From contig CAVGNR010000009.1 in the NCBI GenBank assembly GCA_963630675.1, positions 886-64,885 of the forward strand: a stretch of 64,000 nt of DNA, given 5' to 3'. Below the pieces are notes generated by a model. That model had not been told where the DNA came from and did not search any database. It worked only from the letters and a program-made list of their open reading frames with translations. Of the stretch, positions 1,719 to 20,238 are shown piece after piece; the first letter of the stretch is position 1, and every line of letters begins with the position of its first letter. The stretch comes from Escherichia coli. GTDB lineage: Bacteria > Bacillota_I > Bacilli_A > RFN20 > CAG-826. Position numbers and translations under genes: made by a program.

Positions 1719-2796
1719 TGTTTTTGCTAGTAAGGAAAAAGTTGGCACACTTGCATTGACAAAAGAAAATGTAGTGGCTTTTCAATACACCGATGAATGG
1801 ATTGCGAATGGTTTTTCCATCAATCCTTTCAAATTACCATTATCCAAACAATTGTTTTTTTCTACTTCACCCTATTTTAAAGGCTTGTTTGGTGTCTTTG
1901 CGGATTCTTTGCCTGATAGTTATGGTGAGCTACTTTTAGAACGTTACTTAAAAAGTAAAAACATAGATATGAATAAGCTAACTTGCTTAGATAGACTTGC
2001 TTATGTTGGTTCTTCTGGTATGGGAGCATTAGAATACGTTCCAGATTGGAGCATAGAAATTAATAAAAACAATTATGATTTCGATACAATTCAAAATGAA
2101 TGTAACGATTTATTAAGGGCAAAAGAGGTTCAAAATATTGATGAACTTTACGCTTTAGGCGGATCTAGTGGCGGTTCTAGGCCTAAATCATTAATCAAGT
2201 ATGAAGGCGAGGACTACATTGTTAAATTTTCATCTAAATATGATCCCAAAAACATTGCTGAACTTGAATATACATATATGTCTCTTGCTCAAGAGGCGGG
2301 GATCCATATACCAACGATTAAATTGGTATCATCAAAACTTGGCAACAAATATTTTCTTATTAAAAGGTTTGATAGGTGTGCTGATAAAAAAATACACATG
2401 ATAAGTGTAGCCGCATTATTGGAGGCTGATTTTCGGGCTCCTTCGCTTGATTATAATGAACTATTGAAACTCACAAGAGTGTTAACAAAAAATGATGATG
2501 ATCTTTTAGAAATGTTTAGAAGAATGGTTTTTAACGTTTTGGCCGATAATCAAGATGACCACATCAAAAATTTCTCTTTCATCTATGATGAGACAAAAAA
2601 AATGTATAGATTATCTCCAGCGTATGATATTACTCCCGGGAAAACATATTATGGCGAGCATACGACATCCGTTAATGGAAAAGGAAAGGGGATAACCGAT
2701 GAAGATATGCTTAAGGTTGCTACAAATAACAAAATAGATTTGGATACTGCAAAAAAGATTATTAGCAAGTGCAAAAAAGTCTTAAAGATTTCCTAA
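1702..2796 (+). CDS. hipA: HipA-like Ser/Thr kinase toxin, short form
   Basis: 364 aa. Carries the HipA catalytic-loop motif DNQDDHIKNFSF (D-x-H-x-K-N) and glycine-rich segments. Operonic with the upstream HTH gene. Confidence 0.75.
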   Translation: MIRKIDVFASKEKVGTLALTKENVVAFQYTDEWIANGFSINPFKLPLSKQLFFSTSPYFKGLFGVFADSLPDSYGELLLERYLKSKNIDMNKLTCLDRLAYVGSSGMGALEYVPDWSIEINKNNYDFDTIQNECNDLLRAKEVQNIDELYALGGSSGGSRPKSLIKYEGEDYIVKFSSKYDPKNIAELEYTYMSLAQEAGIHIPTIKLVSSKLGNKYFLIKRFDRCADKKIHMISVAALLEADFRAPSLDYNELLKLTRVLTKNDDDLLEMFRRMVFNVLADNQDDHIKNFSFIYDETKKMYRLSPAYDITPGKTYYGEHTTSVNGKGKGITDEDMLKVATNNKIDLDTAKKIISKCKKVLKIS

Positions 2797-2932: not shown

Positions 2933-4984
2933 ATGAACGCATCCATTAAGAAATTTCGTAACATTACATTCATCTTTGCTCTAATAGAGCTAATCTTTAT
3001 TGGAACCCTCACTTTTTTCTGGGTTTATAACACTTTCGGCATCCGTGATATCAAATATATCGAAGAGTATATATTTTTAGGTTTTGTCGTTCTTTGCTTA
3101 GCTGACATCCTTTTCACTTGGTTTGCTTTAGCACGTCTTTCGAGAAAAAGACAAAGTAATGATATCGAAGTGGCTTCTCTTATTGGTAACGACATTCAAA
3201 TGGCTTATAACTTCAATCAAATTGGTTTGCTAGCCATTGATGAAAATGGTCTCGTGTTATGGACCAATACTTTGTTTAACGAAAGACAATTGGATCTTGT
3301 TGATACGGATATTTTCCAATCTTTTCCTGCCTTGAAGGAATTGGTCAAACTCAAAAGCGATAAGACCGTCCATCTTGAAATGAAAGGCAAATCATATGAA
3401 GTTCGTTTCTTAAGCGAACCAAGATTGTTTGTCTTTAAAGATGTGACCGAATATGACAACGTTGTCAATTATTCTAAGGAACAAGCCATTGCTTTAGGTG
3501 TTGTCATGATTGATAACTTTAATGATGTTGCTTCAGATACGGATGAAGTAGCGGACGCGGTTATGGATGTTCGCGCTATTGTTCGTGATTATTTCCGCCA
3601 ATATAAAGTCCTTCTTACCCAAGTGAAACAAGACCGTTATTTCGCGGTTTGTAATTTTAATGCCCTTGATCAAATGGAGAAAGATGGCTTCTCTGTGATG
3701 GATAAAGTTCGTGAAAAACAGGATAAAGAAGATACACCATTAACCTTATCTATTGGTTTTGCTCATGACTTCCCTGATGTGGGCAAGCTATACGAAATGA
3801 CGGAAGAAGCGATCGATACCGCTTTAGCCCGTGGTGGTGACCAAGCTGTTATTTCACAATATGGCAAGGAGCTTCGTTTCTTTGGTGGCAAATCAGCTGC
3901 TATTGAGAATACCTCTAAAGTGAAAGTCCGTTCCATGGTTGGAGGGCTTGCTAAATTAATTAAAGATTCCAGCGCTGTCTTCATTATGGGACATACCGAA
4001 ATGGATATGGACGCTTTAGGAAGTTGCTTGGGCATTAAGGCCATTTGTGATTGGTGTAAAAAACCAGCCAAGATTGTCTATGCACCAAAACGTACAGAAA
4101 AGAAGGCTAGACTTGCCTTCACAAGCGCCTTCTCAAAAGATGTTTTGGATCAGTTGACCTTAACTCCAGAACAAGCCGCAGCTCAAATTAAAGAAACTTC
4201 GCTTGTTGTTGTCGTAGATGTCTCTGTTCCAAAAAACGTCATGGGCCCAAAGATTCTTGATTTAGCAAGAAAAGTCGTTGTCATTGACCATCATCGTCGT
4301 GGCGATTCCTTCATCGAAAGACCATCTTTGTCCTATATTGAGCCATCCGCCTCTAGCGCTTGCGAATTGATCACGGAAATGATTCGTTATGCGGCTGCGA
4401 ACCCTCGTATAGATTTGAAGCCATCTTATGCCACAATCATGTTGTCCGGCATTTTCATGGATTCCCAATATTTCAAGAGCAAATCCGTTGGTATGAGAAC
4501 CTTCGAAGCGGCCGAAATCTTGAAAGAATACGGCGCTGAAAACACTCTTGCGGATGAATATCTCAAAGACGATTACGAAGAATTCGCTTTGACGAATAAG
4601 ATACTCGGGACAATGAAGACGCCATCTTATGGTGTTCTCTATTGTGTTTCAGATGATAGCGATATCGTTGAAAGAAGTGCGCTTGCTAAGGTGGCGAATT
4701 CCCTTCTTTCTCTTAGAGATGTGCACGCTTCCTTCGTTATCGGAAGGACGGCAGATAAGCAAATTAGCATATCCGCAAGAAGCGATGGAACCATATCTGT
4801 TCAGCTTCTTATGGAACAATTAGGGGGTGGAGGTCACCTTACGATGGCGGCAACCTTATTCCCAAATCCAAAAGTTCCAAACATCACTCATGTTGATGAG
4901 GCGGAAAAGAAACTTATAGAATGTTTGAATGATTACTTAGACGCTTCAAAAGTAAACGTCACTGCGGGAGGAAACAATGTATGA
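2933..4984 (+). CDS. gdpP: GdpP-type cyclic-di-AMP phosphodiesterase (2TM-PAS-degenerate GGDEF-DHH-DHHA1)
   Basis: Two N-terminal TM helices, a DHH motif (VIDHHRRGD) and a DHHA1 GGGGH motif. Conserved position upstream of rplI-dnaB. Start placed at ATG 2933 (MNASIKK...); the ORF-track frame opens at 2879. Confidence 0.8.
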   Translation: MNASIKKFRNITFIFALIELIFIGTLTFFWVYNTFGIRDIKYIEEYIFLGFVVLCLADILFTWFALARLSRKRQSNDIEVASLIGNDIQMAYNFNQIGLLAIDENGLVLWTNTLFNERQLDLVDTDIFQSFPALKELVKLKSDKTVHLEMKGKSYEVRFLSEPRLFVFKDVTEYDNVVNYSKEQAIALGVVMIDNFNDVASDTDEVADAVMDVRAIVRDYFRQYKVLLTQVKQDRYFAVCNFNALDQMEKDGFSVMDKVREKQDKEDTPLTLSIGFAHDFPDVGKLYEMTEEAIDTALARGGDQAVISQYGKELRFFGGKSAAIENTSKVKVRSMVGGLAKLIKDSSAVFIMGHTEMDMDALGSCLGIKAICDWCKKPAKIVYAPKRTEKKARLAFTSAFSKDVLDQLTLTPEQAAAQIKETSLVVVVDVSVPKNVMGPKILDLARKVVVIDHHRRGDSFIERPSLSYIEPSASSACELITEMIRYAAANPRIDLKPSYATIMLSGIFMDSQYFKSKSVGMRTFEAAEILKEYGAENTLADEYLKDDYEEFALTNKILGTMKTPSYGVLYCVSDDSDIVERSALAKVANSLLSLRDVHASFVIGRTADKQISISARSDGTISVQLLMEQLGGGGHLTMAATLFPNPKVPNITHVDEAEKKLIECLNDYLDASKVNVTAGGNNV

Positions 4985-5442
4985 AAATCATTTTATTAGC
5001 CGATGTTAAAGGCGTAGGTAAAAAAGGAATGACCGTTGATGCGAAAGACGGTTTTGCTAAGAATTTCCTCATTCCACGTGGTTTAGCTGTTATTTCCACG
5101 GATAGCAATCAAAAGATTTTAGCGAAGAACAATGCTGAAGAAGACGCAAGACAACAAGCTTTGAAAAAAGAAGCAGAAGAGCTTGCAAAGCGTCTTGAAC
5201 ACATTAACGTTGAATTTAAAGCCAAAGTTGGAAGCGATGGCAGAATGTTTGGCGCCATTTCTCCAAAACAAATCGAAGAAGGCTTAAAAGCCCAATGGAA
5301 TATCATTATCGATAAACGTAAATTCATCGATAAATATCCTGCTAATGCTTTAGGATACACCCGTTTGAAAATTGAACTTTATAAAGGAAGCGCTGGCGAA
5401 GTTGTTGGCACCGTTAATGTTCATATTTCTGAGGAAAAATAA
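4981..5442 (+). CDS. rplI: 50S ribosomal protein L9
   Basis: MKIILLADVKGVGKKGMTVDAKDGFAKNFLIPRGLAV matches the L9 N-domain. ATGA overlap with the gdpP stop. Confidence 0.9.
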   Translation: MKIILLADVKGVGKKGMTVDAKDGFAKNFLIPRGLAVISTDSNQKILAKNNAEEDARQQALKKEAEELAKRLEHINVEFKAKVGSDGRMFGAISPKQIEEGLKAQWNIIIDKRKFIDKYPANALGYTRLKIELYKGSAGEVVGTVNVHISEEK

Positions 5443-6911
5443 TGCCAAAAGTATCTCTTCCCTCCAACGTTGAAGCAGAGCGCTCTGTTTTGGGCGCCAT
5501 GCTTTTATCTGCCAATGCTTGCAATATTGCGATTGCTTCTTTGACGGAAGATTCTTTTTCGGACGTTGATCCTAGAAATAAGATTATCTTCCATGCGATG
5601 GAAAATCTTAGCCAGCATGAACAAATTATTGACCCTCAAACGGTAACCAACGAACTCATTAACACCAATCTTTTAAGCGCGGCAGGGGATTCCTCCTATC
5701 TTTTGGAATTGATGAATAGCGTCATTAATCCAGAGAATGTGGAACATTATGTTGCAATCGTTAAAGACCAACAAGTTTTAAGAGAGTTCCTTTTAGCACT
5801 TCAGGACATTCAAAAAGATTACGCGGAAGGAAAAATCTCCGATATTGGGGATTTCTTAGCCAATTCTCAACAAACCTTAACGGCCATTACCAATAGAAGA
5901 TCTGTTGGCGGTTTCCGTAAAGGTGGAGAAATTGCCAAAGAAGTCAAACTTAAGATCATTGCTGAAGCGAAGCGTTCTAACCGCTCTTTAACGGGTGTTG
6001 ATACGGGCTTCCGCGGATTAAATAAACTCACCCATGGTTGGCAAGCAGGCGACCTGATTGTATTAGCTGCTCGTCCTTCTGTTGGCAAAACTGCATTTGC
6101 TTTAAATTTAGCGGTAAATGCTGCTTCTTATAAAGGAGAACCAGTCGCTGTCTTCTCGGGAGAAATGGATTCTACGTTGGTTATGAAACGTATCCTTTCT
6201 TCTATTTCTCGCGTTTCTCTTTCGGGAAACGAACCTTTAACGGATAGAGATTTAGGAAAGATTGCTCTTGCTGTTACGGAAGTAGAACGCATGAATCTTT
6301 ATATTGATGATAAACCAAACCCAAAATTAGGCGACATCATCGCAAAATCCATCAAGTTAAAGAATAGCGAGCCTAATCTTTGCGCTATCTTTATTGACTA
6401 TATTAACATCATACATACGGAAAAATCTTTTGAATCCCGTTCATTGGAAGTCGCAGAAATTACTTCCTCTTTGAAAGAGCTAGCCCGTACTTTAAAAATA
6501 CCAGTTATCGCTCTTGCTCAGGTTAACCGTGATGCGGATAAAAATGAAAACGGTGTTCCAAGCATGTCTAACTTAAAGGATTCTGGCTCCATCGAACAAG
6601 ATGCGGACATCATTATGTTGATGTACCGTAAAGATTATTACGATAACCAAGGAAAACGCATTGTCAAAGGGCAATCCGCCTTTGAACAAAAGATGGATGC
6701 TCAAGTGGAGAAAGCAAAACAAGCCGGGCCAAATAAAGACTCTGGCTCTGTTACCACAATCAATGTCACTAAGAACCGTAACGGCTCTACCGGTAAAGTT
6801 TCTTTAATGTTTTCTAAAGCCATCCAGCATTTTGACAACTTCTCCTTAGAAGCAGAAGATGAAGAGAGAAGATTAAATGGTGAAGAAGGATATCCTTCGG
6901 ACGAGGAATGA
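5442..6911 (+). CDS. dnaB: replicative DNA helicase (DnaB family)
   Basis: Walker A (ARPSVGKTAFALNLA) and an N-terminal DnaB domain; about 489 aa with an acidic C-terminal extension. Conserved rplI-dnaB linkage. Confidence 0.9.
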   Translation: MPKVSLPSNVEAERSVLGAMLLSANACNIAIASLTEDSFSDVDPRNKIIFHAMENLSQHEQIIDPQTVTNELINTNLLSAAGDSSYLLELMNSVINPENVEHYVAIVKDQQVLREFLLALQDIQKDYAEGKISDIGDFLANSQQTLTAITNRRSVGGFRKGGEIAKEVKLKIIAEAKRSNRSLTGVDTGFRGLNKLTHGWQAGDLIVLAARPSVGKTAFALNLAVNAASYKGEPVAVFSGEMDSTLVMKRILSSISRVSLSGNEPLTDRDLGKIALAVTEVERMNLYIDDKPNPKLGDIIAKSIKLKNSEPNLCAIFIDYINIIHTEKSFESRSLEVAEITSSLKELARTLKIPVIALAQVNRDADKNENGVPSMSNLKDSGSIEQDADIIMLMYRKDYYDNQGKRIVKGQSAFEQKMDAQVEKAKQAGPNKDSGSVTTINVTKNRNGSTGKVSLMFSKAIQHFDNFSLEAEDEERRLNGEEGYPSDEE

Positions 6912-7666
6912 TACGTTACGTAATGGCGTCTTCCTCTTCAAAGGGAAATGCTGCTTTCATTTATTCCGAAACAACCCTCATTCAGGTGGATATGGGAGTT
7001 ACTTTAAGCGCGCTTAAGAAAGCCATATCTTTGGCTCCTTATCGATTAGAAGACATTCACGCTCTGCTTGTCACCCATGAGCATTCTGATCATATTAAGG
7101 GAATGTCTTTATCTTGTTATAAGCATCTTAATATCGACACCTATGCAGGAGAAGGAACCTTAAAAGAGCCGACCCATGTAGTAGAAGAGGAGTCTTCTTT
7201 TGATGTTGGCGATTTTACGATTATCCCTGTCCGTACTTCCCATGACGCCAACCATCCGCTGGGTTTCATCTTCATTCAAGGGAAAGAGAAACTCGTTTAT
7301 ATGACGGATACGGGCTATATTCCTGAAGAAAGCCTTCCTTATATGGAGAATGCAAACTTCTATATTATTGAATCGAATCACGACTTAAAGATGTTAAAAG
7401 AATCTTCTCGACCGATGATTCTAAAAAAGAGGATTCATTCCAAGCACGGACACCTATCCAATGAAGAATCCGCTCGTTACTTTGTGGATCTTGTTGGAGA
7501 TAAAACAAAAGAAATTACTCTTGCTCATCTCTCTTTAGAATGCAATACTCCAGAAAAAGCTATAGAAACGTGGGATAAAATATTTCAAGAAAAGGGCTTA
7601 TCTATTTCCAAATACCATTTAAGAGTTGCGCCAGCATGTGAGCCTTTGCTAGGAGGAGACAAATGA
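6908..7666 (+). CDS. MBL-fold metallo-hydrolase (YycJ/WalJ-like)
   Basis: HxHxDH motif (HEHSDHIKG). Overlaps the dnaB stop (ATGA) and precedes rlmH, as yycJ does in Firmicutes. Confidence 0.6.
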   Translation: MIRYVMASSSSKGNAAFIYSETTLIQVDMGVTLSALKKAISLAPYRLEDIHALLVTHEHSDHIKGMSLSCYKHLNIDTYAGEGTLKEPTHVVEEESSFDVGDFTIIPVRTSHDANHPLGFIFIQGKEKLVYMTDTGYIPEESLPYMENANFYIIESNHDLKMLKESSRPMILKKRIHSKHGHLSNEESARYFVDLVGDKTKEITLAHLSLECNTPEKAIETWDKIFQEKGLSISKYHLRVAPACEPLLGGDK

Positions 7667-8142
7667 AAATACGCATCATTACCATTGGAAAACTAAAAGA
7701 ACCTTATTGGAGAGCTGCTGAACAAGAATATTTAAAAAGGCTTAACCCATATAGCAAAATAGAGGTTATAGAATGTAACGACCTTCCTTCAAAAGAGAAT
7801 GCCTCTTTAAAAGAAGAAGAGGAAACTAAGCTCAAAGAAGGAAGAGAAGTCCTTGCTAAATTAAAACCAAGTGACTTCTTGGTGTTACTAGACTTAGGAA
7901 AAGAAGAAATGACTTCCCCAGAATTAGCTAAGAAATTCTCCAAATGGATGGAATTATCCGGAAGCAATCTAACCTTTGTTATTGGTGGCTCTCTTGGCTT
8001 ATCTCAGGAATTAAGAAATAGGGGAAACGTGACTTTGACATTATCCTCCTTAACTTTCACCCATCAGATGACAAGAATCATTCTTCTTGAACAGATATAC
8101 CGCTCTTTTAAAATTCTTAAGAATGAGCCTTATCATAAATAA
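7663..8142 (+). CDS. rlmH: 23S rRNA (pseudouridine1915-N3)-methyltransferase RlmH (SPOUT)
   Basis: MKIRIITIGKLKEPYWRAAEQEYLKRL is RlmH-like; 159 aa; start overlaps the preceding gene. Confidence 0.85.
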   Translation: MKIRIITIGKLKEPYWRAAEQEYLKRLNPYSKIEVIECNDLPSKENASLKEEEETKLKEGREVLAKLKPSDFLVLLDLGKEEMTSPELAKKFSKWMELSGSNLTFVIGGSLGLSQELRNRGNVTLTLSSLTFTHQMTRIILLEQIYRSFKILKNEPYHK

Positions 8143-8163
8143 TAGGAGTAATATATAGACATT

Positions 8164-8502
8164 ATGATTTATCCTGAATTTGAACAATTTGAATCCTTCG
8201 TTGATCCTCTTAATCCTTATTGCAACGCCTATAAAACAAAAGAAGGCCATATCTTCTATGTTGAGCCTGGTTTCTATTCGGGCATGCAAGGTTTTAAGGA
8301 AAAAAGGGAAGAACGTTACCAAGATCTCTTAAATGGCATCTTCGATGTTATTAAGAAAAACGAGAAGGTGATCTTTACCTGGTCTTATGATTCTCCGTTT
8401 ATGGAAAAAGATGGATTCATCTATCGTGAAATCTCTGATATCTCTGATCCATTAAAGATATATGTGGAAGATAAGAGCCGCGGTAGTGATTACGGAGATT
8501 AG
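8164..8502 (+). CDS. hypothetical protein
   Basis: 112-aa ORF with no recognisable motif. Followed by a bidirectional terminator. Confidence 0.4.
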   Translation: MIYPEFEQFESFVDPLNPYCNAYKTKEGHIFYVEPGFYSGMQGFKEKREERYQDLLNGIFDVIKKNEKVIFTWSYDSPFMEKDGFIYREISDISDPLKIYVEDKSRGSDYGD

Positions 8503-8519
8503 CAAAAAGATAAAAAGAA

Positions 8520-8554
8520 AATCCTCGTTCTTCAAATCGAAACGAGGATTTTTA
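8520..8554. terminator. bidirectional hairpin terminator
   Basis: AATCCTCGTT ... AACGAGGATT inverted repeat followed by a T-run, between convergent genes. Confidence 0.6.
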
Positions 8555-8566
8555 GTATTCATGTAA

Positions 8567-9667
8567 TTAAGCTTGTGGACGAAGGCTTCTCATCGACATC
8601 CAAGTGATTCTAAGGATATACATCATTGGGAAGAGGAACATCGTCATTCCAGCGAAGGATGGGATGAAGGCAAGAAGACCAAGAAGGGCTGGGCATAAGG
8701 ATGCGTAATAGCCAATCTTTTGGCATTGCCAGAAGGTATAGATTCTAAATGGATTGTTCTTTCCTCTTGTCATAATGAAGATAAGCAAGCCCATCAAGAA
8801 GATGATACCAACAGAGATAGCAAGCATGATTCCACTATATTCCCAAGCGAGGGTAACACGAGTTGAAGCATAGCCATTCTCTAAGAAGTTGCACCAGGCA
8901 TCAATGACTGTTTGATTTTCAGCTGGGGTGAGAATGGTGTGCAAATCTTTTCCGTCAAAGCCTTTGTAATCGTATTTGACTTGGACGTTTTTAACGACTT
9001 GGCTGCCTTTAACACCTTTGGCAAGATAGATGGCATCTTTACCAATAACGATGGTATTGGTGTTATAGCTTTCTGGAGCTTGTCCTAATTCAGCATTCGG
9101 ATCGTTTATAACATTGGAGAATTTATTTGAAGCGAACTTGTATGGACTTTCGTCCCCGCAATAATAAACAGCTAAACCACAACGCCATTGATCTTTGGCA
9201 GTGATAATACCAGCTGCTTGAGAAGAAGAGGAAGAGCTATTTTCATCCTTTGGCTTCTCTTCGGTAATGGAAACTGGAACTTTGTAGTAATAACCCCAAT
9301 AGGAAACATCTTTTCCATTTGGATTGACGCATTTTTCTTTCCAAGCCGCTTCATCTAATGTCAAAGAGCCGTTTTCAATTTTCATGCTCACGTCAGATGT
9401 TTCTTTTTGGAAAGCAACAAGAGCGTTTTCGTAATCGTAAGAATATCCACTCGTGAAGAAATCCGATGCTTTAGTGGTGAAATATCCTACCATTGTTGGA
9501 ATGGTCGCAATAAGAGCGGCGACAATTGCCACAATAACTGGTCCATACCATTTGTGTTCTCTTCCTGAGACACAAGTGTCATTAGAGAAGAGCGTTTTCA
9601 GTAAAAACTTCAATTTTTGAAGAAATTTATTTTGCTTTTTTTGTTTAATTGGTTTTGCTTTTGCCAT
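8567..9667 (-). CDS. membrane protein, function unknown
   Basis: 366 aa with a Lys-rich N-terminus, one TM helix, a large extracytoplasmic domain and C-terminal TM helices. Confidence 0.5.
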   Translation of the reverse strand: MAKAKPIKQKKQNKFLQKLKFLLKTLFSNDTCVSGREHKWYGPVIVAIVAALIATIPTMVGYFTTKASDFFTSGYSYDYENALVAFQKETSDVSMKIENGSLTLDEAAWKEKCVNPNGKDVSYWGYYYKVPVSITEEKPKDENSSSSSSQAAGIITAKDQWRCGLAVYYCGDESPYKFASNKFSNVINDPNAELGQAPESYNTNTIVIGKDAIYLAKGVKGSQVVKNVQVKYDYKGFDGKDLHTILTPAENQTVIDAWCNFLENGYASTRVTLAWEYSGIMLAISVGIIFLMGLLIFIMTRGKNNPFRIYTFWQCQKIGYYASLCPALLGLLAFIPSFAGMTMFLFPMMYILRITWMSMRSLRPQA

Positions 9668-9827
9668 AGTTCATCCTTTATTCAAGCATTGAAACTTTAC
9701 AACAAACGGGACGATTATACAAAGGAAACCGCTTCTATTGTCTCTAAGAGACAAGAAAGGAATGTATTTCTAACGTTTTTTGGCATATACTACAAAGGCT
9801 CAAATAATTGAGCATATGGGGTCGTTC

Positions 9828-10216
9828 TGGTTTTGACGGGGAACCGATCTTGCCTGGACTGCAGTAGCGTGATGAGCTTTAACATCAAAAAACAATAACT
9901 GACAACAGTTATATCTATGCGAACCGCGCTCAACGCGTTTCGTATGCTGCCGCTTAATTAGTAACCTACGGGTTTCCTAGCATCGTCTAGGAGGAGCACG
10001 TCCTCCGTTAGTTTCGCATCTTACTAACGGGCAGGGCGCTAAATAAGATGATAAGCGCCAATCCTTGGCTAGGGAAAGGCGACGAAAACCCTCTTAGCCT
10101 CGCTAATTGGATTTGGTCTTATCGTACCAGTTAGTTAAATTATGATAGGACCTAAACTGTAGAGGTCCTTGTGGGAGATTCTTCGGACAGGGGTTCAATT
10201 CCCCTCGACTCCACCA
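9828..10216 (+). ncRNA. ssrA: tmRNA (ssrA)
   Basis: 5' GGGGTCGTTCTGGTTTTGACGGGG acceptor/TLD start. 3' end GGACAGGGGTTCAATTCCCCTCGACTCCACCA (T-arm plus encoded CCA). The internal tag reading frame ends ...VSYAAA-TAA (GCG 9919 to TAA 9955-9957). Confidence 0.85.
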
Positions 10217-10244
10217 ATAAATGAAATATAATAGGAGTTAGCGT

Positions 10245-11489
10245 ATGTTCTATTGTGATTTTTCTATAACTTTGGATATTGGTACGCTAATAATTGCGAT
10301 ACTTAGTATTATTGCAATAATTGTATATTTTTGTAGCAAAAAAAGATTAAAAAAGTTGAATTTTGATATTGATGAATGCGAACTTGGATTAACAGGCGGG
10401 ACTATTCGTTTAAAATGTAATAAGATTCATCAACAAATTGCTTTTAGAATATGGGTTGATATTAATACTCGGGTTCTTGCAACTAAAATTAATTTAGATG
10501 TTGATAATATACGTGTTATAAATGATTCTTATTATAAGTGTTTTACAGACACTCGTGAATTGTTGAAAGAAATACCGGTTGATAAAATAAATAGCGATAG
10601 TGAATTAGTAAACTTGATTGTAAGGTTTTTAAATGAAGTAATGAGACCATATTTAACAAAATGGGGTGTTCGTTATAATCAATGGTACGATAATAAAATA
10701 GAAAAAGATGGTTTGAAAGGCGATAATCCAGTAGATATTCAAAAGAGTTATTCTGATTATGAAGAGTTATCGAACGATTTGTTATCAATTAATGAAAAAG
10801 TAATAAAATATAGTGATAAATTGCGCGAGATTGCATTTTCTGAAGCTAAGAAAAAAATAAAGGAAGTAAAAAACATGATAAATAGACATAAAGTTTTTAT
10901 AAGTTATTATCACGATGATGACCAGTTTTACAAAAACGAAATAGCAAAATGGAATGAGATTTATAATTTATTTGATGATTATTCTGTAAATGACGGAGAT
11001 ATTGATGATACATATTTAACGGATGAAGCAATCCGTGTAAAAATCAGAGATGAATACATTAAGGATGCCACAGTTTTAGTATTGCTTTGTGGCTGCAATA
11101 CTAAACATAGAAAATACATTGATTGGGAACTACATGCTGCAATGTATGATACTGAAAAGAATCCTAAGATGGGAATTTTAGTGGTTAATTTGCCTTCTTG
11201 TAGAAATAATATTAGAGCTGTTGAGGATAGAGAAAAAGAAATAGTAGCTCCAAACACAAACTGGACCACCTTTACTAAAAGAAGTGAGTACGAGTCTGCA
11301 TATCCAGATTTACCTTCAAGACTAATTGATTCATTGGTTAAAAAGCATTCTGATATTACTTTTGTCAATTGGAATACAATTTCTAATAATCATTTTTTAC
11401 TTCAAGAGTTAGTCGATTTTGCGTATATGAGAAGAAAAACAATAGAATATGATTTATCTGCTCCATTAAGAAGAAAAAATTCAAATTAA
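10245..11489 (+). CDS. membrane-anchored protein with a C-terminal TIR-like (ThsB/DUF1863-like) domain; candidate defense protein
   Basis: N-terminal TM helix (LIIAILSIIAIIVYFC). The C-terminal domain starts KVFISYYHDDD and contains LVLLCGCNTKHRKYIDWELHAAM...MGILVVNLP, which resembles the ThsB/DUF1863 TIR core including a candidate catalytic Glu in the WEL motif. The gene is much more AT-rich than its flanks and starts 28 bp after the tmRNA CCA. Confidence 0.6.
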   Translation: MFYCDFSITLDIGTLIIAILSIIAIIVYFCSKKRLKKLNFDIDECELGLTGGTIRLKCNKIHQQIAFRIWVDINTRVLATKINLDVDNIRVINDSYYKCFTDTRELLKEIPVDKINSDSELVNLIVRFLNEVMRPYLTKWGVRYNQWYDNKIEKDGLKGDNPVDIQKSYSDYEELSNDLLSINEKVIKYSDKLREIAFSEAKKKIKEVKNMINRHKVFISYYHDDDQFYKNEIAKWNEIYNLFDDYSVNDGDIDDTYLTDEAIRVKIRDEYIKDATVLVLLCGCNTKHRKYIDWELHAAMYDTEKNPKMGILVVNLPSCRNNIRAVEDREKEIVAPNTNWTTFTKRSEYESAYPDLPSRLIDSLVKKHSDITFVNWNTISNNHFLLQELVDFAYMRRKTIEYDLSAPLRRKNSN

Positions 11490-11807
11490 TATTAATTATA
11501 GATAAGTGGCTTATACGAATCAGGGTGTGCAGGGGTGTGCATTGTATTAAAATGGTTCATCTTTGCCAAATTTGAAATTGCGGAACGAAACGCTACTGTA
11601 TTGCTATTTGTCAAATAGTAGGGATGCCAAGGCTTTCACCGAAAAGATACATAGCGACTTATTCGGTTATCAATAGTCAAATCGAAGTCACAATTAACGC
11701 TTTCGGAAAAACAAATGATTGCTTTGACCTTTGGGAATGAACTCCTGGAGGTTTTTTGTTTTGGCTATTGCTAACGTCGTATATTTCTTTAGGAATAGCG
11801 ACCTTTC

Positions 11808-12428
11808 GTGTTAGAATGCTCGTATATGAAACACACCCGCAGAAGATCTAAAAAGACCATCTCCAAAAAGTTCGGGGGGGGGTTATTATTTTTTCTCAGT
11901 AGCATCTCTTTGATAGGAGTTGGTTTTTCGAGTTGGGTGATAGGGCCCTTAAGCAGTGCGCAAGTCGACATAAATGTGTATGCAGCCGACATAATCAACG
12001 GTGATTATTTTTCTATATCTACAAATGACATAAAGATGTTCACGCTTGGTCCAAACGGTTTGGTGAAAGACGAAACAATCGTCAACGAATCCTCTATCGA
12101 GATCTCTTTTTACATTAATAACGAAGTAGCTTATCCATCAACCGGTTCGGGACTCCTGAATTTTGAGATGATCCTTTCATGCAGCAGTCAATCTTTCCTG
12201 AATGCCTATATTTCAAATCCAACAATGAACGGAACAACAAACTTATCCTCATCAACGGCTGGTACAGAAATGGTCAGCGATGTGAGCTATACAATATCTG
12301 AAACAGGGAAAACAAAAGCCACAACAATCTATAAAGTAACTGACACAGCGAATGCTGACGGAAAATATATGGCTGATTTATATTATTCAGCCAAACCGAC
12401 TTTTAATTTCAAGGTGAGGGGCAAATAA
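11808..12428 (+). CDS. secreted/membrane-anchored hypothetical protein
   Basis: Basic N-terminus followed by a hydrophobic segment (LLFFLSSISLIGVGFSSWVIG). An alternative start is MKHTRRR at 11826. A 3-nt gap to the next gene suggests an operon. Confidence 0.45.
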   Translation: MLECSYMKHTRRRSKKTISKKFGGGLLFFLSSISLIGVGFSSWVIGPLSSAQVDINVYAADIINGDYFSISTNDIKMFTLGPNGLVKDETIVNESSIEISFYINNEVAYPSTGSGLLNFEMILSCSSQSFLNAYISNPTMNGTTNLSSSTAGTEMVSDVSYTISETGKTKATTIYKVTDTANADGKYMADLYYSAKPTFNFKVRGK

Positions 12429-12430
12429 GA

Positions 12431-14335
12431 ATGGCTAAAACTAGGCTCAACACTTTTTTACTATCTTTAGTTCTTGCAACTTCGACTTTTTTCAATGTCG
12501 GCAAAAGTAATTGGATAATACCTGGCGAAGCAAATGTCGATAACATAACGATAAACAATGGCAGTAGAGCCGTATGCTACAACGGAAGGACCAAAACGAA
12601 GTACACGACAATTGAAAAAGCCTTGGAAGTGGCGAAGAACGATACTGCGAACAATGACACGATATATGTAATCCCAGGCACCAATCCTGTAATCACTAGA
12701 AGTTGCGAGATTGCTAGCGGAGACACTCTTTGCTTGCCTTATGAGGATAATGGCAACGATGTTCATACCTTTCTTAACAGAAACGACACCACAAGCAATG
12801 CGACATTCGGAGACTTGAATTCAGATAATGTTAATAAAAATAGGAAAAATCAAATTACGATCAGAGGAAATGTATCGCTGACAAATAATGGCACTTTAAC
12901 GGTCGGGGGCAGTATTGGATATGGTGGATCAGCCGTTGGCATTACTGGTCAAACCGCAAGCAGCTATTGCGAAATCTTGATGAAGAACAACTCGAAGATT
13001 ATTAACAATGGGAGCATCAATCTATACGGATATATTAAGGAATCTTCAAAAAACAATGGCAGTTATGTTGAACACAAAAATTCATCAGTTATAAAATTGC
13101 CGTTTGTGATTTACGATTTTCGAGGTGGAAGCTATTCCTATGCTTGCTATGGGAAGGATGTGATGCCTTTTAGTAATTATGATTTTCCTAACTGTCAGTC
13201 TTTGCAGAAGTTTTATTATGGTTCCAAAATGTATGGTCTAGCAACGATATATGCAGGCAACTCATGGTCAACGCCTGAGGTTTTGGTTTTAGGAACAGAT
13301 TCAGATTCTTGTTTATTTAGGCTGTCTAATAATTATGCGACTCTTAAATACGCCCCTAGCAACGTTCTTTATACCACGAATGACGTATCAGCATCAACTA
13401 CATTAGAAACCGCTAATTTTACCGAGATTCACACTTTTGGGGATATTTCGCTTTCTAGTTTAAGGATTGAATTAAAGGTTGGTTTGACGATAATGGTTGA
13501 CACATCAAAAATGTATTGTCCTTTGTGTTTCAAATACCAAGTTATAGTTGAACGAGGGACTTTTACTGTGTCAAACAAAATGAAATTTTTGGGTGGAGCT
13601 TCTTTACTGATAAAGCCTGGTGCAACTGTAACATGCAACGCTAACGTCAGTTTTTATCAAGATTACATTCCTAACATAATTACTGGAGGAAGTGATTTAT
13701 ACCCTTCATCTTTTACAACGGCAAATCTTGTTAATAACGGAATTTTGAATCTAAATAGCGCTTTCGGGGGATTGGTAGAGACTTCTGAAATTTCTGGCAG
13801 ACTTAATACAAGCAACGGCTTTTCAGAATCGGTTACTACAATGGAAATCTTATCTTCTAAGGGCAGTAGCATTTTTGCATCGACAGACAAAACAGAAAAC
13901 AAAGTACAAGACGCTTTAGGTTATCTTGGCGCAACAGGAAGACCAAATGAATCAACTATACTTTCTAAATCTAAATCTTTTGAGTCAAAGGGAAATTATT
14001 GGTATTTACCGTTAGCGGATATATCTTCACTTGTCATTTCACCTGATAGCGGTGCTTCTGCCAAAAACTCAATCGGCACTTTCGAATTGAGTGCATTGAT
14101 CTCCCCAATAGAAAATTCCTGTAGCAATATTGTATATCAATGGTCTTGCGATAGTGGGGCAAGTTTAAGTGCAACCGTAGGTCCAAGTACAACTTTAACT
14201 ATGCCTGCTAATGATTCACGCTGGTCTGATAAGGATTATAAAGTTACTTGCGTTGTAACATTCACAAAGTCTGATGGTAAAACAGAAAGCTTAAATGCGA
14301 CTGGTATATATACCGCGACAAAACGGGGATGGTAA
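12431..14335 (+). CDS. secreted right-handed beta-helix (pectate-lyase-like) protein with a C-terminal Ig-like domain
   Basis: Signal peptide MAKTRLNTFLLSLVLATSTFFNV. Asn/Gly-rich repetitive beta-strand periodicity (NNGTLTVGG, NNGSINLYGYI) and an Ig-like tail. Confidence 0.5.
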   Translation: MAKTRLNTFLLSLVLATSTFFNVGKSNWIIPGEANVDNITINNGSRAVCYNGRTKTKYTTIEKALEVAKNDTANNDTIYVIPGTNPVITRSCEIASGDTLCLPYEDNGNDVHTFLNRNDTTSNATFGDLNSDNVNKNRKNQITIRGNVSLTNNGTLTVGGSIGYGGSAVGITGQTASSYCEILMKNNSKIINNGSINLYGYIKESSKNNGSYVEHKNSSVIKLPFVIYDFRGGSYSYACYGKDVMPFSNYDFPNCQSLQKFYYGSKMYGLATIYAGNSWSTPEVLVLGTDSDSCLFRLSNNYATLKYAPSNVLYTTNDVSASTTLETANFTEIHTFGDISLSSLRIELKVGLTIMVDTSKMYCPLCFKYQVIVERGTFTVSNKMKFLGGASLLIKPGATVTCNANVSFYQDYIPNIITGGSDLYPSSFTTANLVNNGILNLNSAFGGLVETSEISGRLNTSNGFSESVTTMEILSSKGSSIFASTDKTENKVQDALGYLGATGRPNESTILSKSKSFESKGNYWYLPLADISSLVISPDSGASAKNSIGTFELSALISPIENSCSNIVYQWSCDSGASLSATVGPSTTLTMPANDSRWSDKDYKVTCVVTFTKSDGKTESLNATGIYTATKRGW

Positions 14336-14504
14336 CTATTTATAATTTTGCTGTCAAGAACAAATTCAGTCTGCTTCTGATATAAGAAGTATTTTTCAAA
14401 AGAAAAACATAGGTTTGATACAATTTGTGTCAGACCTTTTTTCATTGCGGATAGAAATACTTTTTGTCTAATGAAGATGCCGTTAAAAAATAAGGAGGGG
14501 AAAC

Positions 14505-14813: not shown

Positions 14814-15094
14814 GCAAAGCCAAAAACATTACTAATCTTTAAAAAACAAATTCTTATTTTTCGTACGCTTTAGGTGCCTTACGCAATTAAGCGCAATAAG
14901 AAAACAATCGATAAATAGGCGCTTTTAATTTTTTAAGGCGCTTTTTTTGCACATGTGCGCAATAAGAAAGTCACAGCAGTTATATAGAGACGATTGGAAG
15001 GCGTTAGATTCTTGACGTTTTAGTAATTTACGTTCATGAAAGCCCTTTATTTGACAAAATGCAAGAATAAAACGCGTATTTAAGAAACAATCCT

Positions 15095-15125
15095 TGACAT
15101 TGTTTTTATATTTAGTTCAATACCA
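15095..15125 (+). promoter_or_regulatory. promoter-like element upstream of the lipoprotein operon
   Basis: TTGACA at 15095-15100 with an AT-rich spacer and a weak -10. Upstream lie the palindrome TGCACATGTGCA and the duplicated GCGCAATAAGAAA motif (14885-14968). Confidence 0.25.
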
Positions 15126-15147
15126 TTTGCGAAAGGAGCATTTAGAT

Positions 15148-16854
15148 ATGAAAAACAAAATGAAAAACATCTTTATTCCCCTTCTGGCTACTGGTTTATT
15201 GCTAACGAGTTGCAACGGTGGAGAAACCGAATCAAGCAGTTCTAGTGTTATTCCGTCTACTTCCGAAGCAAGTAAGGAACCAACCATCACTAAAAAGTTA
15301 ATTACGAAAGTGGCAGAAGGATGGAAAACTCAATATGAAGTGGGAGATGCTCTCTCCCTAACCGGGTTAACCGTTTCTCTTGAAACCTATTCGGATGACG
15401 TTCTTTCTCAAACGGATGCTGTAACGGATTTCACCTTAACGATCGGTGAAAAGATCGTTCAAGAAGGATATGTCTTTGTTAAAGAGGATATAAACGATGC
15501 CTTAACCTTGTCCGTTCATAAAGACACGTATACTTCAGATTTATCTTTATCTGTCATTGATAAAGCGTATTCCGGGGATACGGTTTATTTACAAGTGCAA
15601 GATGGCACAAGCGAAGGGACATGGAGTTGCTCTCTTGAACAAATTACCGTTAAAAAAGCAAACGGAGAAGAATTAGAAAGCCCTCTTACTCTTCAAAAAG
15701 ATGAAACTGATGGCATTTATTTCTTTGAGATGCCAGAGGCCTCTATCTTATTCACTTTCTCTCCAACGAACGAAAGCAAATACGCTGATCAAGAATTCAT
15801 TGGAAAATACAAAGGGTTTGATTTAAACGGCGCATGGAGTGGAAGTAGTATTTCCTCTTCCGGTGAAGTAAAGGCTAACGGAACGTTTAGCATTACCGTG
15901 GAAGGTGCTGTTATGGATGCTCATTTCGATGATATTGCTTATAAGTTGGATGAGAACGGGAAGATTGCTCTTGATAGCGAAACCTATACCTCAAATACAA
16001 TCTCTTATGATTCTTCCATCCTTCGTTACCACGTTGCTTATTCTAGCTCCACAAATGATACATACGACATCTATTTATTAAAAGGAGCGGAGAACGTAAA
16101 GGTTTCAACCCTTTTTGGAAGTGATGATAAGAATTATGTTCTTGCTCAATTCACTTCTGGAGAAACAACTTATTCCTTCTTATCTATTAAAGAGAAGCTT
16201 TATTGCGGTGTTGAAATTGTTGGTAACAAAGACAATTTACTCTCATCTACCTTATTAACTGTGACTTACGGACAAGAAACGGCGTACTTCAAAAAGAGCG
16301 AGGACTCTCATCAAATTGAAGTGGCTGTAAAAGGCCCTGAAGCAGGCACATATACGTCTAGCGATAATAAATCCCTTGTTCTTGATGGATTTGGTGGATG
16401 TAGCTTAGACGGAGCGAAAGGAAGCTATGTATATGATTCCAAAGAACAGGCTGTAACTGTAACAATTAGCGGAAAAGAAACTATATACACCCTTGATTTA
16501 GAGAAAAAGAGCTTCTCTCCTAAAGCCTTTGCTAACGAAGACCCATGGGCCAACGAAGCTATGACTTACAAGGGAGTTCTTAGTACAAATTTCTTTGAAG
16601 ACGTTCCAATGATTCTAACTTTCAACGCTGGAAAGGTTACTTATAAAGAATATGATAGCGGCTTAGATAATAAGCAATACGATTACACCTTCTCAAATGG
16701 TGTGGTTACCTTCTCTGCGACGAATTATTCAGCAAGCTTGTTTACCTTCAATTTTGCTGTCTCTTCAGATAATTCGACACTTACTTTGAAGGAAAGAGTG
16801 AATGTTCAAGGAAACATCTATTTCCCGAAAAACTTCAAACTTACAAAACAATAA
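15148..16854 (+). CDS. lipoprotein 1 of a tandem array
   Basis: Lipobox LLLTSC plus a Ser-rich linker. RBS AAAGGAG upstream of ATG 15148. Confidence 0.6.
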   Translation: MKNKMKNIFIPLLATGLLLTSCNGGETESSSSSVIPSTSEASKEPTITKKLITKVAEGWKTQYEVGDALSLTGLTVSLETYSDDVLSQTDAVTDFTLTIGEKIVQEGYVFVKEDINDALTLSVHKDTYTSDLSLSVIDKAYSGDTVYLQVQDGTSEGTWSCSLEQITVKKANGEELESPLTLQKDETDGIYFFEMPEASILFTFSPTNESKYADQEFIGKYKGFDLNGAWSGSSISSSGEVKANGTFSITVEGAVMDAHFDDIAYKLDENGKIALDSETYTSNTISYDSSILRYHVAYSSSTNDTYDIYLLKGAENVKVSTLFGSDDKNYVLAQFTSGETTYSFLSIKEKLYCGVEIVGNKDNLLSSTLLTVTYGQETAYFKKSEDSHQIEVAVKGPEAGTYTSSDNKSLVLDGFGGCSLDGAKGSYVYDSKEQAVTVTISGKETIYTLDLEKKSFSPKAFANEDPWANEAMTYKGVLSTNFFEDVPMILTFNAGKVTYKEYDSGLDNKQYDYTFSNGVVTFSATNYSASLFTFNFAVSSDNSTLTLKERVNVQGNIYFPKNFKLTKQ

Positions 16855-16866
16855 AAAAGGAGAAAC

Positions 16867-17644
16867 AATGAAAAATAATATTAAATTCTTAATTCTGCCA
16901 TTGGCTGCAACATTATTGGCTTCATGCCAAAGCAATTCCTCCGAGGAATCTTCTTCAGAGAATAGCGTATCTTCTGAAGTCACACAAAAGGTTGATACAA
17001 CTCTTTTAGAAGTGAAAACAACGATCAATGGTTGCAATGTCTCTGGAGTTAGCGTGGATATTTCTCAAGGCATTGGAACAGTGCTAGTCACTGGGCAAAG
17101 CTATGATATGAAAGTGAGCGTTACCGATAAAGGTGGGGACGTTACTCCAACTTATAGCCAAGAGGGAATTATTTCTTTTGAGAAAAAATCCTCGGAAACA
17201 TACACCTTAAAAGCCTTAAAAGCAGGGGGTGTTACTCTTTCTTTGAAAGATAAAGACGACATTACGGTATACCGTTGTGTAATCAATGTTCGTGATCCTC
17301 TTGCTCCGACAGAGCTCACAAACTTCATTATTGAAACGGTTGATCATTATCAAACGACCTTCCAAAACGCTTCATACAATTACAGCATCTCTTTTGTTAG
17401 CAACACTGAAGGCGTTTTAAAAGGAAAAGAGGAAGGCAATACTTACAACACCTCTTTCACCTATACCTTAGGAGAAAAACCAGTACGTCTTTCTAATTTC
17501 TATGGTTATGAATTAAACATCACCATGGATGAAGCCAACGAGAACCTTACTTTTGGTGCTTCCTATATTTCTGCCAACGGATTCAATATGTTGCCATTCG
17601 ATAAAGGAGGATCCGTGCTTGGCTTCTTTGCCGCTAAATTTTAA
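16867..17644 (+). CDS. lipoprotein 2
   Basis: MKNNIKFLILPLAATLLASCQSN lipobox plus Ser/Glu-rich linker. RBS AAAAGGAG. Confidence 0.6.
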
Positions 17645-17659
17645 TGAGGAGAACACAAT

Positions 17660-20236: not shown

Positions 20237-20238
20237 AA

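What the first reader, a model, noticed from the sequence alone, without database searches (positions are those of the whole stretch)
10217..11520. AT-rich single-gene islet directly 3' of tmRNA encoding a membrane-anchored ThsB-like TIR protein
The ORF starts only 28 bp after the encoded CCA end of ssrA, a classic integration hotspot. It is visibly far more AT-rich than either flank, which suggests horizontal acquisition. Its C-terminal 200 aa begins KVFISYYHDDD and contains LVLLCGCNTKHRKYIDWELHAAMYDTEKNPKMGILVVNLP. From memory this lines up with the catalytic core of Thoeris ThsB / DUF1863 TIR-like domains (...CVLIGSQTFNRRWVRYEI...GIHIN), including a Glu in the W-x-E position. No ThsA partner (SIR2/SLOG/macro), integrase or other defense gene is nearby. 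This could therefore be a stand-alone TIR-based abortive-infection gene of a type not yet described.
Basis: partly seen in the sequence, partly recalled or inferred. Interest (0 to 1): 0.8.

Follow-up and report, generated by a model that had tools for sequence, protein, structure and literature searches.

The report
Fused type VI Thoeris defence gene
The gene next to the tmRNA is a two-gene "type VI Thoeris" anti-phage module (membrane effector ThsG plus TIR sensor ThsB) that a 4-base deletion has welded into one reading frame in this strain; this defence type was described in 2025, so this is a new member rather than a new kind.

Summary
tmRNA lies at 9818-10216. A 414-aa ORF lies at 10245-11489. 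GC is 27-31% against 37-41% in the flanks. The C-terminal half matches Pfam ThsB_TIR (E 8.6e-17) and has an invariant catalytic Glu (E295).

- **Fusion:** The "membrane anchor" (residues 1-204) is a ThsG effector. It matches the validated type VI Thoeris effector by hhalign (98.6%, E 1.4e-15).
- **Normal state:** Strains of the same species carry two overlapping genes at the same tmRNA (ssrA) site, ThsG (214 aa) and ThsB (204 aa). The window lacks 4 nt (CAAA) in an A-rich tract, which fuses the frames.
- **Family context:** In 71 of 78 informative ThsG loci from many phyla, a TIR gene sits beside ThsG.
- **Island:** Two conspecific contigs have an empty site. This defines a 4.2-kb accessory island (10217-14398).

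The locus is therefore a member of a known kind (Yirmiya et al., bioRxiv, Dec 2025). Three features are unusual. The canonical upstream ThsB is lost, the remaining ThsB is a long form, and effector and sensor are fused. Whether the fused allele works is untested.

The parts
9818..10216 (+). tmRNA (ssrA). Its CCA end is the left border of the island.
   Evidence: ARAGORN; Rfam RF00023, 135.5 bits.
10217..14398 (+). Accessory island, absent from conspecific contigs L103 and L107. It contains the Thoeris cassette plus two ORFs for putative surface proteins. The junctions share only a CA microhomology and there is no long att repeat.
   Evidence: L103 and L107 are 95.3-95.5% identical to window 4000-10217. 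They then continue directly at window 14397 onward. No tmRNA 3' duplicate was found in 9700-13000.
10219..11568 (+). AT-rich Thoeris cassette. It is 89.7% identical to a cassette located after tRNA-Ala in another genome (L007, L008, L010). Its first ~25 nt are the 3' end, including the TGA stop, of a lost upstream thsB (TIR172).
   Evidence: blastn; alignments; GC 0.27-0.31.
10245..11489 (+). Fused ThsG::ThsB ORF of 414 aa.
   Evidence: ORF list. The exact protein is on record in an NCBI 96.6-kb contig and a Logan contig.
10245..10856 (+). ThsG effector part (residues 1-204). It has one N-terminal TM helix (about residues 8-31, nt 10266-10337), a beta-hairpin and a helical bundle.
   Evidence: BLASTP 2e-30 to the separate 209-aa gene in L005. 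449 cluster representatives, median length 212 aa. hhalign 98.6% to validated ThsG. AF2 pLDDT 83-96 for most of residues 61-200, with dips to 61 (res 111-120) and 75 (res 151-160). Hydropathy.
10851..10858 (+). Site of the 4-nt deletion. Conspecifics read A7-CAAA-T and the window reads A7-T. The deletion puts thsG in frame with thsB. Strain L100 has A8 here instead.
   Evidence: Alignments.
10860..10877 (+). Retained Shine-Dalgarno-like AAGGAAG (10860-10866) and the original thsB start codon ATG (10875-10877, M211). Free ThsB could still be made.
   Evidence: Sequence. The thsB gene starts here in L099-L102 and L007.
10875..11489 (+). ThsB part. It consists of the TIR domain (residues 216-318) and a conserved ~95-aa C-terminal extension.
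   Evidence: Pfam PF08937 E 8.6e-17. AF2 pLDDT 80-96 for residues 211-400. Top Foldseek PDB hits are TIR domains: MyD88 (rank 1), EcThsB (rank 2), RUN1 (rank 4), with EcThsB2 at rank 14 and BcThsB at rank 15. 25 homologues.
11127..11129 (+). Codon of Glu295 (in DWE), the predicted catalytic glutamate.
   Evidence: Invariant in 26 sequences. It aligns with the Glu of BcThsB (VRYE) and of all Thoeris TIRs taken from Table S1 of the preprint.
11726..11763 (+). Terminator-like hairpin plus T-run, about 240 nt after the stop codon.
   Evidence: Consensus scan only.
11808..14335 (+). Two ORFs carried on the island (206 aa and 634 aa). They have hydrophobic N-termini, no Pfam or PADLOC hit, and normal GC. 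They are probably variable surface proteins and not part of the Thoeris system.
   Evidence: The right part of the island differs between strains.
14412..14442 (+). Original ssrA terminator (GGTTTGATACAATTTGTGTCAGACC plus T6). In empty-site strains it follows the tmRNA CCA after 12 nt.

Best explanation
The locus is a type VI Thoeris-like anti-phage cassette inside a 4.2-kb accessory island at the 3' end of ssrA. The cassette normally encodes two translationally overlapping genes. The first is ThsG, a 214-aa effector with one TM helix and a cytoplasmic helical domain. The second is a 204-aa long-form ThsB TIR protein. In this strain, loss of CAAA in an A-rich tract puts both genes in one frame and gives a 414-aa ThsG::ThsB protein. 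The original thsB ribosome-binding site and ATG are retained. The proposed mechanism is inferred by homology to the validated type VI systems. Phage infection would activate the TIR domain, with E295 as the catalytic residue, to convert NAD+ into a cyclic ADP-ribose isomer, most likely 2'cADPR. The signal would bind pockets between ThsG protomers in a ring-shaped oligomer. The membrane-inserted ThsG would then compromise the membrane or arrest growth, aborting infection. Shown here: domain identities, the fusion event, the ThsG-TIR gene linkage, presence/absence of the island, and purifying selection. Inferred only: the signal chemistry, ThsG oligomerisation and membrane action, and whether the fused allele still works.
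For: TIR: Pfam ThsB_TIR E 8.6e-17, PADLOC ThsB models, TIR fold hits, and invariant R289/D293/W294/E295 aligned to the catalytic Glu. ThsG: the N-terminal domain matches a separate 209-aa gene just upstream of a TIR gene. The family has 449 clusters, almost all about 200-230 aa. Its profile matches the 170-aa effector lying directly downstream of the experimentally validated Bacillus-scaffold type VI TIR (P0211, 100% identical to the published TIR domain) at 98.6% probability and E 1.4e-15. The validated Gammaproteobacteria type VI TIR ('DUF6650 and TM' effector) is 85% identical to the TIR next to a family member in L061, and 56-69% identical to the next eleven best hits listed (paper Tables S1/S2). 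Linkage: 71 of 78 non-edge loci have a same-strand TIR gene within 1.5 kb. Fusion: L011, L099, L101 and L102 carry A7-CAAA-T with two genes, whereas the window and L098 lack CAAA. Selection: dN/dS between the window and L007 is 0.32 for ThsG and 0.125 for ThsB. Mobility: empty site in L103 and L107, a 90%-identical cassette near tRNA-Ala elsewhere, and 98.5-99.7% cassette identity among strains against 93.7-97.9% for the housekeeping flanks.
Against: This Pfam copy gives no DUF6650 hit for any family member. It also gives none for the validated ThsG, so this silence is uninformative. The window's ThsB is only 31% identical to the validated TM-type type VI TIR. Its closest relatives (45-54% identity) sit with SLOG proteins (STALD, LD_cluster2) or Fic, so its product need not be 2'cADPR. 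The canonical upstream ThsB present in L007 (58% identical to the validated TIR) is missing here. The fused allele was seen in one strain only and could be non-functional. No experiment exists on this locus.
Confidence: 0.82

Rival explanations
1. The allele in this window is a decaying remnant. The cassette has lost its canonical upstream ThsB. The frame fusion blocks ThsG oligomerisation or TIR assembly, so the strain carries a dead Thoeris system.
For: Only about 25 nt of the upstream TIR172 gene remain. The fusion is on record for a single strain, while about 20 contigs carry the 204-aa ThsB alone. No other ThsG::TIR fusion was found among 150 representatives and 83 loci. The junction A-tract is indel-prone, with A7, A8 and the 4-nt deletion all seen.
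Against: The fused ORF is intact over 414 codons. Only the non-conserved Lys-rich tail of ThsG is replaced. The thsB SD and ATG are kept. ThsG-then-TIR operons without an upstream TIR occur naturally in 5 of 83 loci. A natural SLOG::ThsB fusion (P0019) exists in the same TIR clade. Both genes show purifying selection between lineages.
Confidence: 0.25
2. One reading: a stand-alone, membrane-anchored TIR abortive-infection protein of an undescribed type that works without a partner.
For: In this strain it is literally one ORF, with no ThsA, SIR2, SLOG or macro gene nearby.
Against: The N-terminal half is homologous to ThsG effectors, which are separate genes in almost all other cases. Conspecific strains carry two genes. 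The system type is published.
Confidence: 0.04
3. The TIR is an NAD+-depleting effector rather than a signal producer. The ThsG-like domain would act as sensor or anchor, as with TIR effectors in CBASS and Pycsar.
For: Bacterial TIRs can act as NADase effectors (stated in the preprint). Nothing here measures the product.
Against: ThsG-family partners respond to exogenous 2'cADPR in the validated systems. Operons often hold 2-3 TIR genes per ThsG, which is typical of multiple sensors feeding one effector. The Pfam match is to the ThsB family.
Confidence: 0.07
4. The fusion is a sequencing or assembly artefact, and the strain really has two genes.
For: The difference lies in a low-complexity A-rich tract. 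Both assemblies carrying it may derive from the same read set.
Against: A clean 4-nt loss is not a typical homopolymer miscall. Two assemblies made by different pipelines agree at 100% over 7245 nt.
Confidence: 0.08

Closest known systems
Type VI Thoeris (ThsB TIR + ThsG/DUF6650 effector, with or without N-terminal TM; signal 2'cADPR). Source: Yirmiya et al., bioRxiv 10.64898/2025.12.03.692087.
   Same: It has a ThsB-type TIR with the catalytic Glu. The effector is homologous to validated ThsG (hhalign 98.6%) and carries an N-terminal TM helix like the validated 'DUF6650 and TM' systems. TIR and ThsG are tightly linked in operons. It sits in a mobile, accessory context.
   Different: The gene order is ThsG then ThsB, the minority order (5 of 83 loci). 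The only ThsB left is a long form (204 aa with a ~95-aa C-terminal extension) that is 31% identical to the validated TIR. The canonical upstream ThsB is lost. The two genes are fused into one ORF. The signal and the defence phenotype are untested.
Type I Thoeris (ThsA SIR2-SLOG + ThsB)
   Same: It belongs to the ThsB_TIR family, has the catalytic Glu, and presumably signals through a cADPR isomer.
   Different: There is no SIR2 or SLOG protein in the ORF or within about 10 kb. The effector is a helical TM protein, not an NADase.
Type II Thoeris (TM + Macro effector; His-ADPR) and type VII Thoeris (SLATT effector; cADPR)
   Same: A membrane-spanning effector is paired with a TIR sensor.
   Different: The N-terminal domain is an all-helical bundle with no Macro or SLATT match in Pfam. 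It has one TM helix rather than two or more.
SLOG-associated ThsB operons (STALD or LD_cluster2 neighbours; type III/IX-like), including the natural LD_cluster2::ThsB fusion P0019
   Same: These hold the closest sequence relatives of the window's TIR half (42-54% identity), with the same C-terminal extension. P0019 shows that this TIR clade tolerates fusion to a signalling partner.
   Different: The partner here is ThsG, not a SLOG protein.

Membership tests
Type VI Thoeris | ThsB: a TIR-domain protein with a catalytic glutamate | tested here: met
   PF08937 E 8.6e-17. E295 is invariant and aligns to the Glu of BcThsB and of the type VI TIRs. TIR fold hits.
Type VI Thoeris | ThsG effector homologous to the validated DUF6650-type effectors | tested here: met
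   Family profile against the effector next to the validated Bacillus-scaffold TIR gives hhalign 98.6%, E 1.4e-15 over 152 columns. A TIR 85% identical to the validated 'DUF6650 and TM' system neighbours a family member.
Type VI Thoeris | Direct Pfam PF20355 (DUF6650) match | tested here: inconclusive
   No hit in 58 + 10 family members, nor in the validated ThsG itself. The library copy or model sensitivity is limiting.
Type VI Thoeris | TIR and effector encoded as adjacent genes of one operon | tested here: met
   They are separate overlapping genes in conspecifics and relatives and adjacent in 71 of 78 loci. In the window itself the two are fused by a 4-nt deletion.
Type VI Thoeris | TIR belongs to the clade of validated type VI TIRs | tested here: inconclusive
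   The window TIR is 31% identical (E 2e-24) to the validated Gammaproteobacteria TIR and 40-41% identical to the E. coli type VI TIRs. Its nearest relatives pair with SLOG or Fic genes. The lost upstream TIR172 of L007 is 58% identical to the validated TIR.
Type VI Thoeris | Phage-induced 2'cADPR production and 2'cADPR-dependent ThsG toxicity | not testable with these tools
   This needs LC-MS and growth assays. It is known only for the published systems.
Type VI Thoeris | Protection against phage | not testable with these tools
Type I Thoeris | ThsA with SIR2 and SLOG domains next to ThsB | tested here: not met
   There is no SIR2 or SLOG hit in the ORF or in neighbours within about 10 kb.
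Type II Thoeris | Effector with TM helices plus a Macro domain | tested here: not met
Type VII Thoeris | SLATT-domain TM effector | tested here: not met
   There is no Pfam SLATT hit in 58 members. A single weak PADLOC RTasSLATT hit (E 0.025) appears in one member.
tmRNA-targeting integrative island | Integrase gene and a direct repeat of the ssrA 3' end at the far border | tested here: not met
   No integrase. No repeat of the tmRNA end. The junctions share only CA. A related genome (L106) does have a 107-nt ssrA 3' duplicate flanking another islet.

The most novel reading that the evidence does not exclude
The 414-aa ThsG::ThsB protein is a functional single-chain Thoeris system. Sensor/synthase and membrane effector would be covalently linked, so the cADPR-type signal acts in cis or within one oligomer. 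It arose in one step through a 4-nt deletion in an indel-prone A-tract. That would be a natural example of how multigene signalling defences collapse into single-gene ones. It would also suggest that 'stand-alone' TIR proteins discarded in systematic Thoeris screens can hide complete systems.
Probability: 0.25. Interest if true: 0.55.

Novelty: new member of a known kind. Interest (0 to 1): 0.32.

Why it matters
The finding turns an apparent orphan, a 'membrane-anchored TIR', into a recognisable two-component immune system. It also shows that the TM-type ThsG family is not caught by the Pfam, NCBIfam or PADLOC libraries used here. Only the window protein was scanned against NCBIfam. The family is nevertheless widespread: 449 clusters at 50% identity, 330 species genomes matched by two peptide motifs alone, many phyla, and about 91% TIR-linked. 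These systems are therefore easy to miss in annotation. The strain-level series at one ssrA site offers a compact natural experiment on how defence cassettes are gained, trimmed and fused. The series comprises an empty site, an unfused cassette, an A8 variant and the fused allele. The system type itself is already described, so the locus does not open a new category.

Tried and rejected
- **PDB sequence search:** The full-length protein gave only designed helical repeats.
- **NCBIfam:** No hits.
- **First word-indexed homologue search:** It returned only C-terminal-half matches. It missed both the 99%-identical ThsG and the 90%-identical ThsB relatives, so its silence on full-length homologues was not informative.
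- **att repeat:** I looked for a duplicate of the tmRNA 3' end within 9700-13000 and found none.
- **Mixed alignment A7:** It combined N- and C-terminal homologues, misaligned them, and was dropped.
- **Genome-contig scan with the broad alignment:** It failed for lack of a conserved stretch and was redone with a narrower set.
- **afdb50 fold search:** Not available.
- **Pfam DUF6650:** Never detected, even for the validated effector.
- **Alternative effector types:** I considered a SLATT or Macro (type II/VII) effector and rejected both on fold and profile evidence.
- **Promoter:** A promoter-like site spans the tmRNA/cassette junction (10205-10232). It is consensus-only evidence. Transcription may instead read through from ssrA.

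Full report
**1. Observation.**
ARAGORN and Rfam both place a tmRNA gene at 9818-10216 on the + strand. A 414-aa ORF runs from 10245 to 11489 and starts 28 nt after the CCA end. GC in 400-nt windows falls to 0.27-0.32 across the ORF, against 0.36-0.42 on both sides. The C-terminal half hits Pfam ThsB_TIR (PF08937) at residues 218-318, with E 8.6e-17 and 61.8 bits against a cut-off of 21.2. PADLOC returns ThsB models and the candidate PDC-M50B. An AlphaFold2 model gives block-mean pLDDT 80-96 for residues 211-400. Its best PDB matches are TIR domains: MyD88, EcThsB and RUN1 at the top, EcThsB2 and BcThsB further down the list. Residues R289, D293, W294 and E295 are invariant in 26 homologues. 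E295 aligns with the catalytic Glu of BcThsB and of every Thoeris TIR taken from the literature table. There is a single hydrophobic segment at about residues 8-31.

**2. The N-terminal half is a separate protein family.**

**3. The family is tightly linked to TIR genes.**
A scan of one genome per species with two peptide motifs confirmed 330 loci. They span Proteobacteria, Firmicutes, Bacteroidota, Planctomycetota, Acidobacteriota, Patescibacteria and a few archaeal MAGs. I analysed 80 of these plus 3 viral contigs. Of the 83, 71 have a TIR gene on the same strand within 1.5 kb, and 5 of the remaining 12 are cut by a contig end. That gives 71 of 78, or 91%. The common layouts are:
- TIR-G: 26 loci
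- TIRb-TIRa-G: 17 loci
- TIRa-G-TIRb: 6 loci
- G-TIR: 5 loci
- G-TIRb-TIRa: 5 loci

**4. Identity with type VI Thoeris.**
A December 2025 preprint (Yirmiya et al., doi 10.64898/2025.12.03.692087) defines Thoeris types V-XI. Type VI pairs a TIR with ThsG, annotated DUF6650, 'in some cases with N-terminal transmembrane helices'. It uses 2'cADPR as the signal, and AF3 models ThsG as a ring-shaped hexamer.
- The validated TIR from the Gammaproteobacteria scaffold (effector labelled 'DUF6650 and TM') is 85% identical to the TIR beside a family member in L061. It is 56-69% identical to the next eleven best hits listed.
- The validated Bacillus-scaffold TIR is present verbatim as P0211. The 170-aa gene directly downstream of it matches my family profile at 98.6% probability and E 1.4e-15 over 152 columns. 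The motifs WVEL-TR, SWY-FF-R and LN-LRP-L-KW are shared.
- This Pfam copy does not hit DUF6650 even for that validated protein. Pfam silence therefore carries no weight.

I conclude that residues 1-204 of the window ORF are a TM-type ThsG.

**5. The single ORF is a frame fusion.**
Close relatives of the N-terminal domain (72-99% identity) are all proteins of 206-214 aa. Contigs L099, L101 and L102 align at 96-99% identity and share the gdpP-rplI-dnaB-MBL-rlmH-tmRNA synteny where they extend that far. The shorter L011 (99.1% identical) covers the tmRNA 3' end and the start of the cassette. All four carry thsG (214 aa) and thsB (204 aa in L099, L101 and L102; cut by the contig end in L011), overlapping by 11 nt (ATGATAAATAG). 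At the junction they read AAGAAAAAAACAAATAAAGG. The window reads AAGAAAAAAATAAAGG, so CAAA is lost, which joins the frames. Strain L100 has an extra A (A8), which shortens ThsG to 206 aa. The exact 414-aa protein is on record only in an NCBI 96.6-kb contig and a Logan assembly of SRR13434651. The Logan contig is 100% identical to the window over 7245 nt. Of the seven other members of its 90% cluster, six are 204-aa ThsB proteins, seen on about 20 contigs, and one is a 101-aa fragment. No other ThsG::TIR fusion appears among 150 representatives or 83 loci. The fusion replaces only the non-conserved Lys-rich tail of ThsG. It keeps the thsB Shine-Dalgarno sequence and ATG.

**6. Origin and mobility.**
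Contigs L007, L008 and L010 carry a cassette 89.7% identical to window 10219-11568, but in another place. It lies about 1 kb after tRNA-Ala, among HTH and DUF4314 genes. There it is preceded by an extra thsB of 172 aa that is 58% identical to the validated type VI TIR. The window keeps only the last ~25 nt of that gene, including its TGA, abutting the tmRNA CCA.

Two conspecific contigs, L103 and L107 (95.4% identical flanks), run from the CCA straight into the ssrA terminator, which in the window lies at 14412-14442. This defines a 4.18-kb island at 10217-14398. The island also carries two unannotated ORFs with hydrophobic N-termini. Its right-hand part differs between strains. There is no integrase and no att repeat, and the junctions share only CA. 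A related genome (L106) does have a 107-nt ssrA 3' duplicate flanking another islet.

Among strains the cassette is 98.5-99.7% identical, against 93.7-97.9% for the housekeeping flanks. This fits recent spread within the species. Between the window and L007, dN/dS is 0.32 for ThsG and 0.125 for ThsB, which indicates purifying selection.

**7. Mechanism.**
By homology, phage infection should activate the TIR to make a cADPR isomer. 2'cADPR is the best guess, because that is the ThsG ligand in the validated systems. The signal would trigger oligomeric, membrane-inserted ThsG to arrest growth.

There are four caveats:
- The remaining ThsB is a long form whose nearest relatives sit with STALD or LD_cluster2 SLOG proteins or with Fic.
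- The canonical ThsB is lost.
- The fused allele may or may not work.
- A natural LD_cluster2::ThsB fusion (P0019) shows that this TIR clade tolerates fusion to a partner.

**8. Verdict.**
It is a ThsB-type TIR in an acquired AT-rich islet at ssrA, but it is not a partner-less, undescribed system. It is a new member of type VI Thoeris, with an unusual strain-specific effector-sensor fusion. No other defence gene lies within about 10 kb, apart from a HipA-like kinase 8 kb upstream.

Noticed in passing
window 1702-2796 (+): A HipA-like toxin kinase (HipA_C E 9e-50, plus Couple_hipA) lies between the rpsF-ssb block and gdpP-rplI-dnaB, in an otherwise housekeeping region. It gives a weak PADLOC PDC-M03A hit. 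I did not look for a HipB partner.
   Followed up: no
window 10851-10858; L099-L102, L100, L007: The A-rich tract at the thsG/thsB junction is polymorphic among near-identical strains. A7-CAAA gives overlapping genes. A8-CAAA gives a 206-aa ThsG with no overlap. A7 with CAAA deleted gives the fusion. It may be an indel hotspot that alters translational coupling.
   Followed up: partly
L106 10026-11466 (metagenome contig ERZ808240 NODE-119): A related genome (88% identical flanks) has a 107-nt duplicate of the tmRNA 3' end 1.3 kb downstream of ssrA. The duplicate brackets a different islet with 172-aa and 72-aa ORFs, in a classic att-type arrangement. ssrA is therefore an active integration site in this lineage.
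   Followed up: partly
window 21259-21330 (-): ARAGORN calls a tRNA-Asp with the odd anticodon ATC inside the 435-aa ORF 20239-21546. Rfam at the gathering threshold reports no tRNA there. It is probably a false positive.
   Followed up: no
window 6908-7666 (+): An MBL-fold gene lies between dnaB and rlmH. It gives weak hits to Anti-Pycsar Apyc1 (precomputed Pfam in L098-L100) and to PADLOC RTasMBL and LmuA. Its conserved position suggests a housekeeping YycJ-like hydrolase rather than a counter-defence gene.
   Followed up: no
L095/L096 (contig carrying the published Bacillus-scaffold type VI system): The validated TIR+ThsG pair sits next to a phage-type integrase. It also faces an opposite-strand cluster with two more TIR_2 genes and two unannotated genes, making a dense TIR island.
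   Followed up: no
P0005, P0012, P0013 (L001, L006); P0019: Relatives of the window's TIR half have their own N-terminal extensions with predicted TM segments (340 aa). P0019 is fused to a SLOG LD_cluster2 domain (457 aa). In L002 and L006 the neighbours are a TIR_2 protein plus an LD_cluster2 protein. One TIR clade thus serves several effector types.
   Followed up: partly
L012-L014 (IMG/VR viral contigs): TM-type ThsG genes with adjacent TIR genes occur on three viral or prophage contigs, so phages also carry this system.
   Followed up: no
window 11808-14335 and 15094-21546: A run of large ORFs has hydrophobic N-termini and no Pfam or PADLOC match, apart from one weak InlB B-repeat hit. The two ORFs inside the ssrA island are replaced by different genes in strains L099 and L100 (130 aa and 775 aa, the latter with a weak Hom_end_hint hit). 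This suggests a variable surface-protein region.
   Followed up: no
Pfam library used here, against L095:4091-4603: The experimentally validated ThsG, described in the preprint as DUF6650 (PF20355), gets no DUF6650 hit with hmmscan in this Pfam copy. The precomputed Pfam annotations also show '-' for it. Annotation pipelines will miss both soluble and TM-type ThsG.
   Followed up: partly
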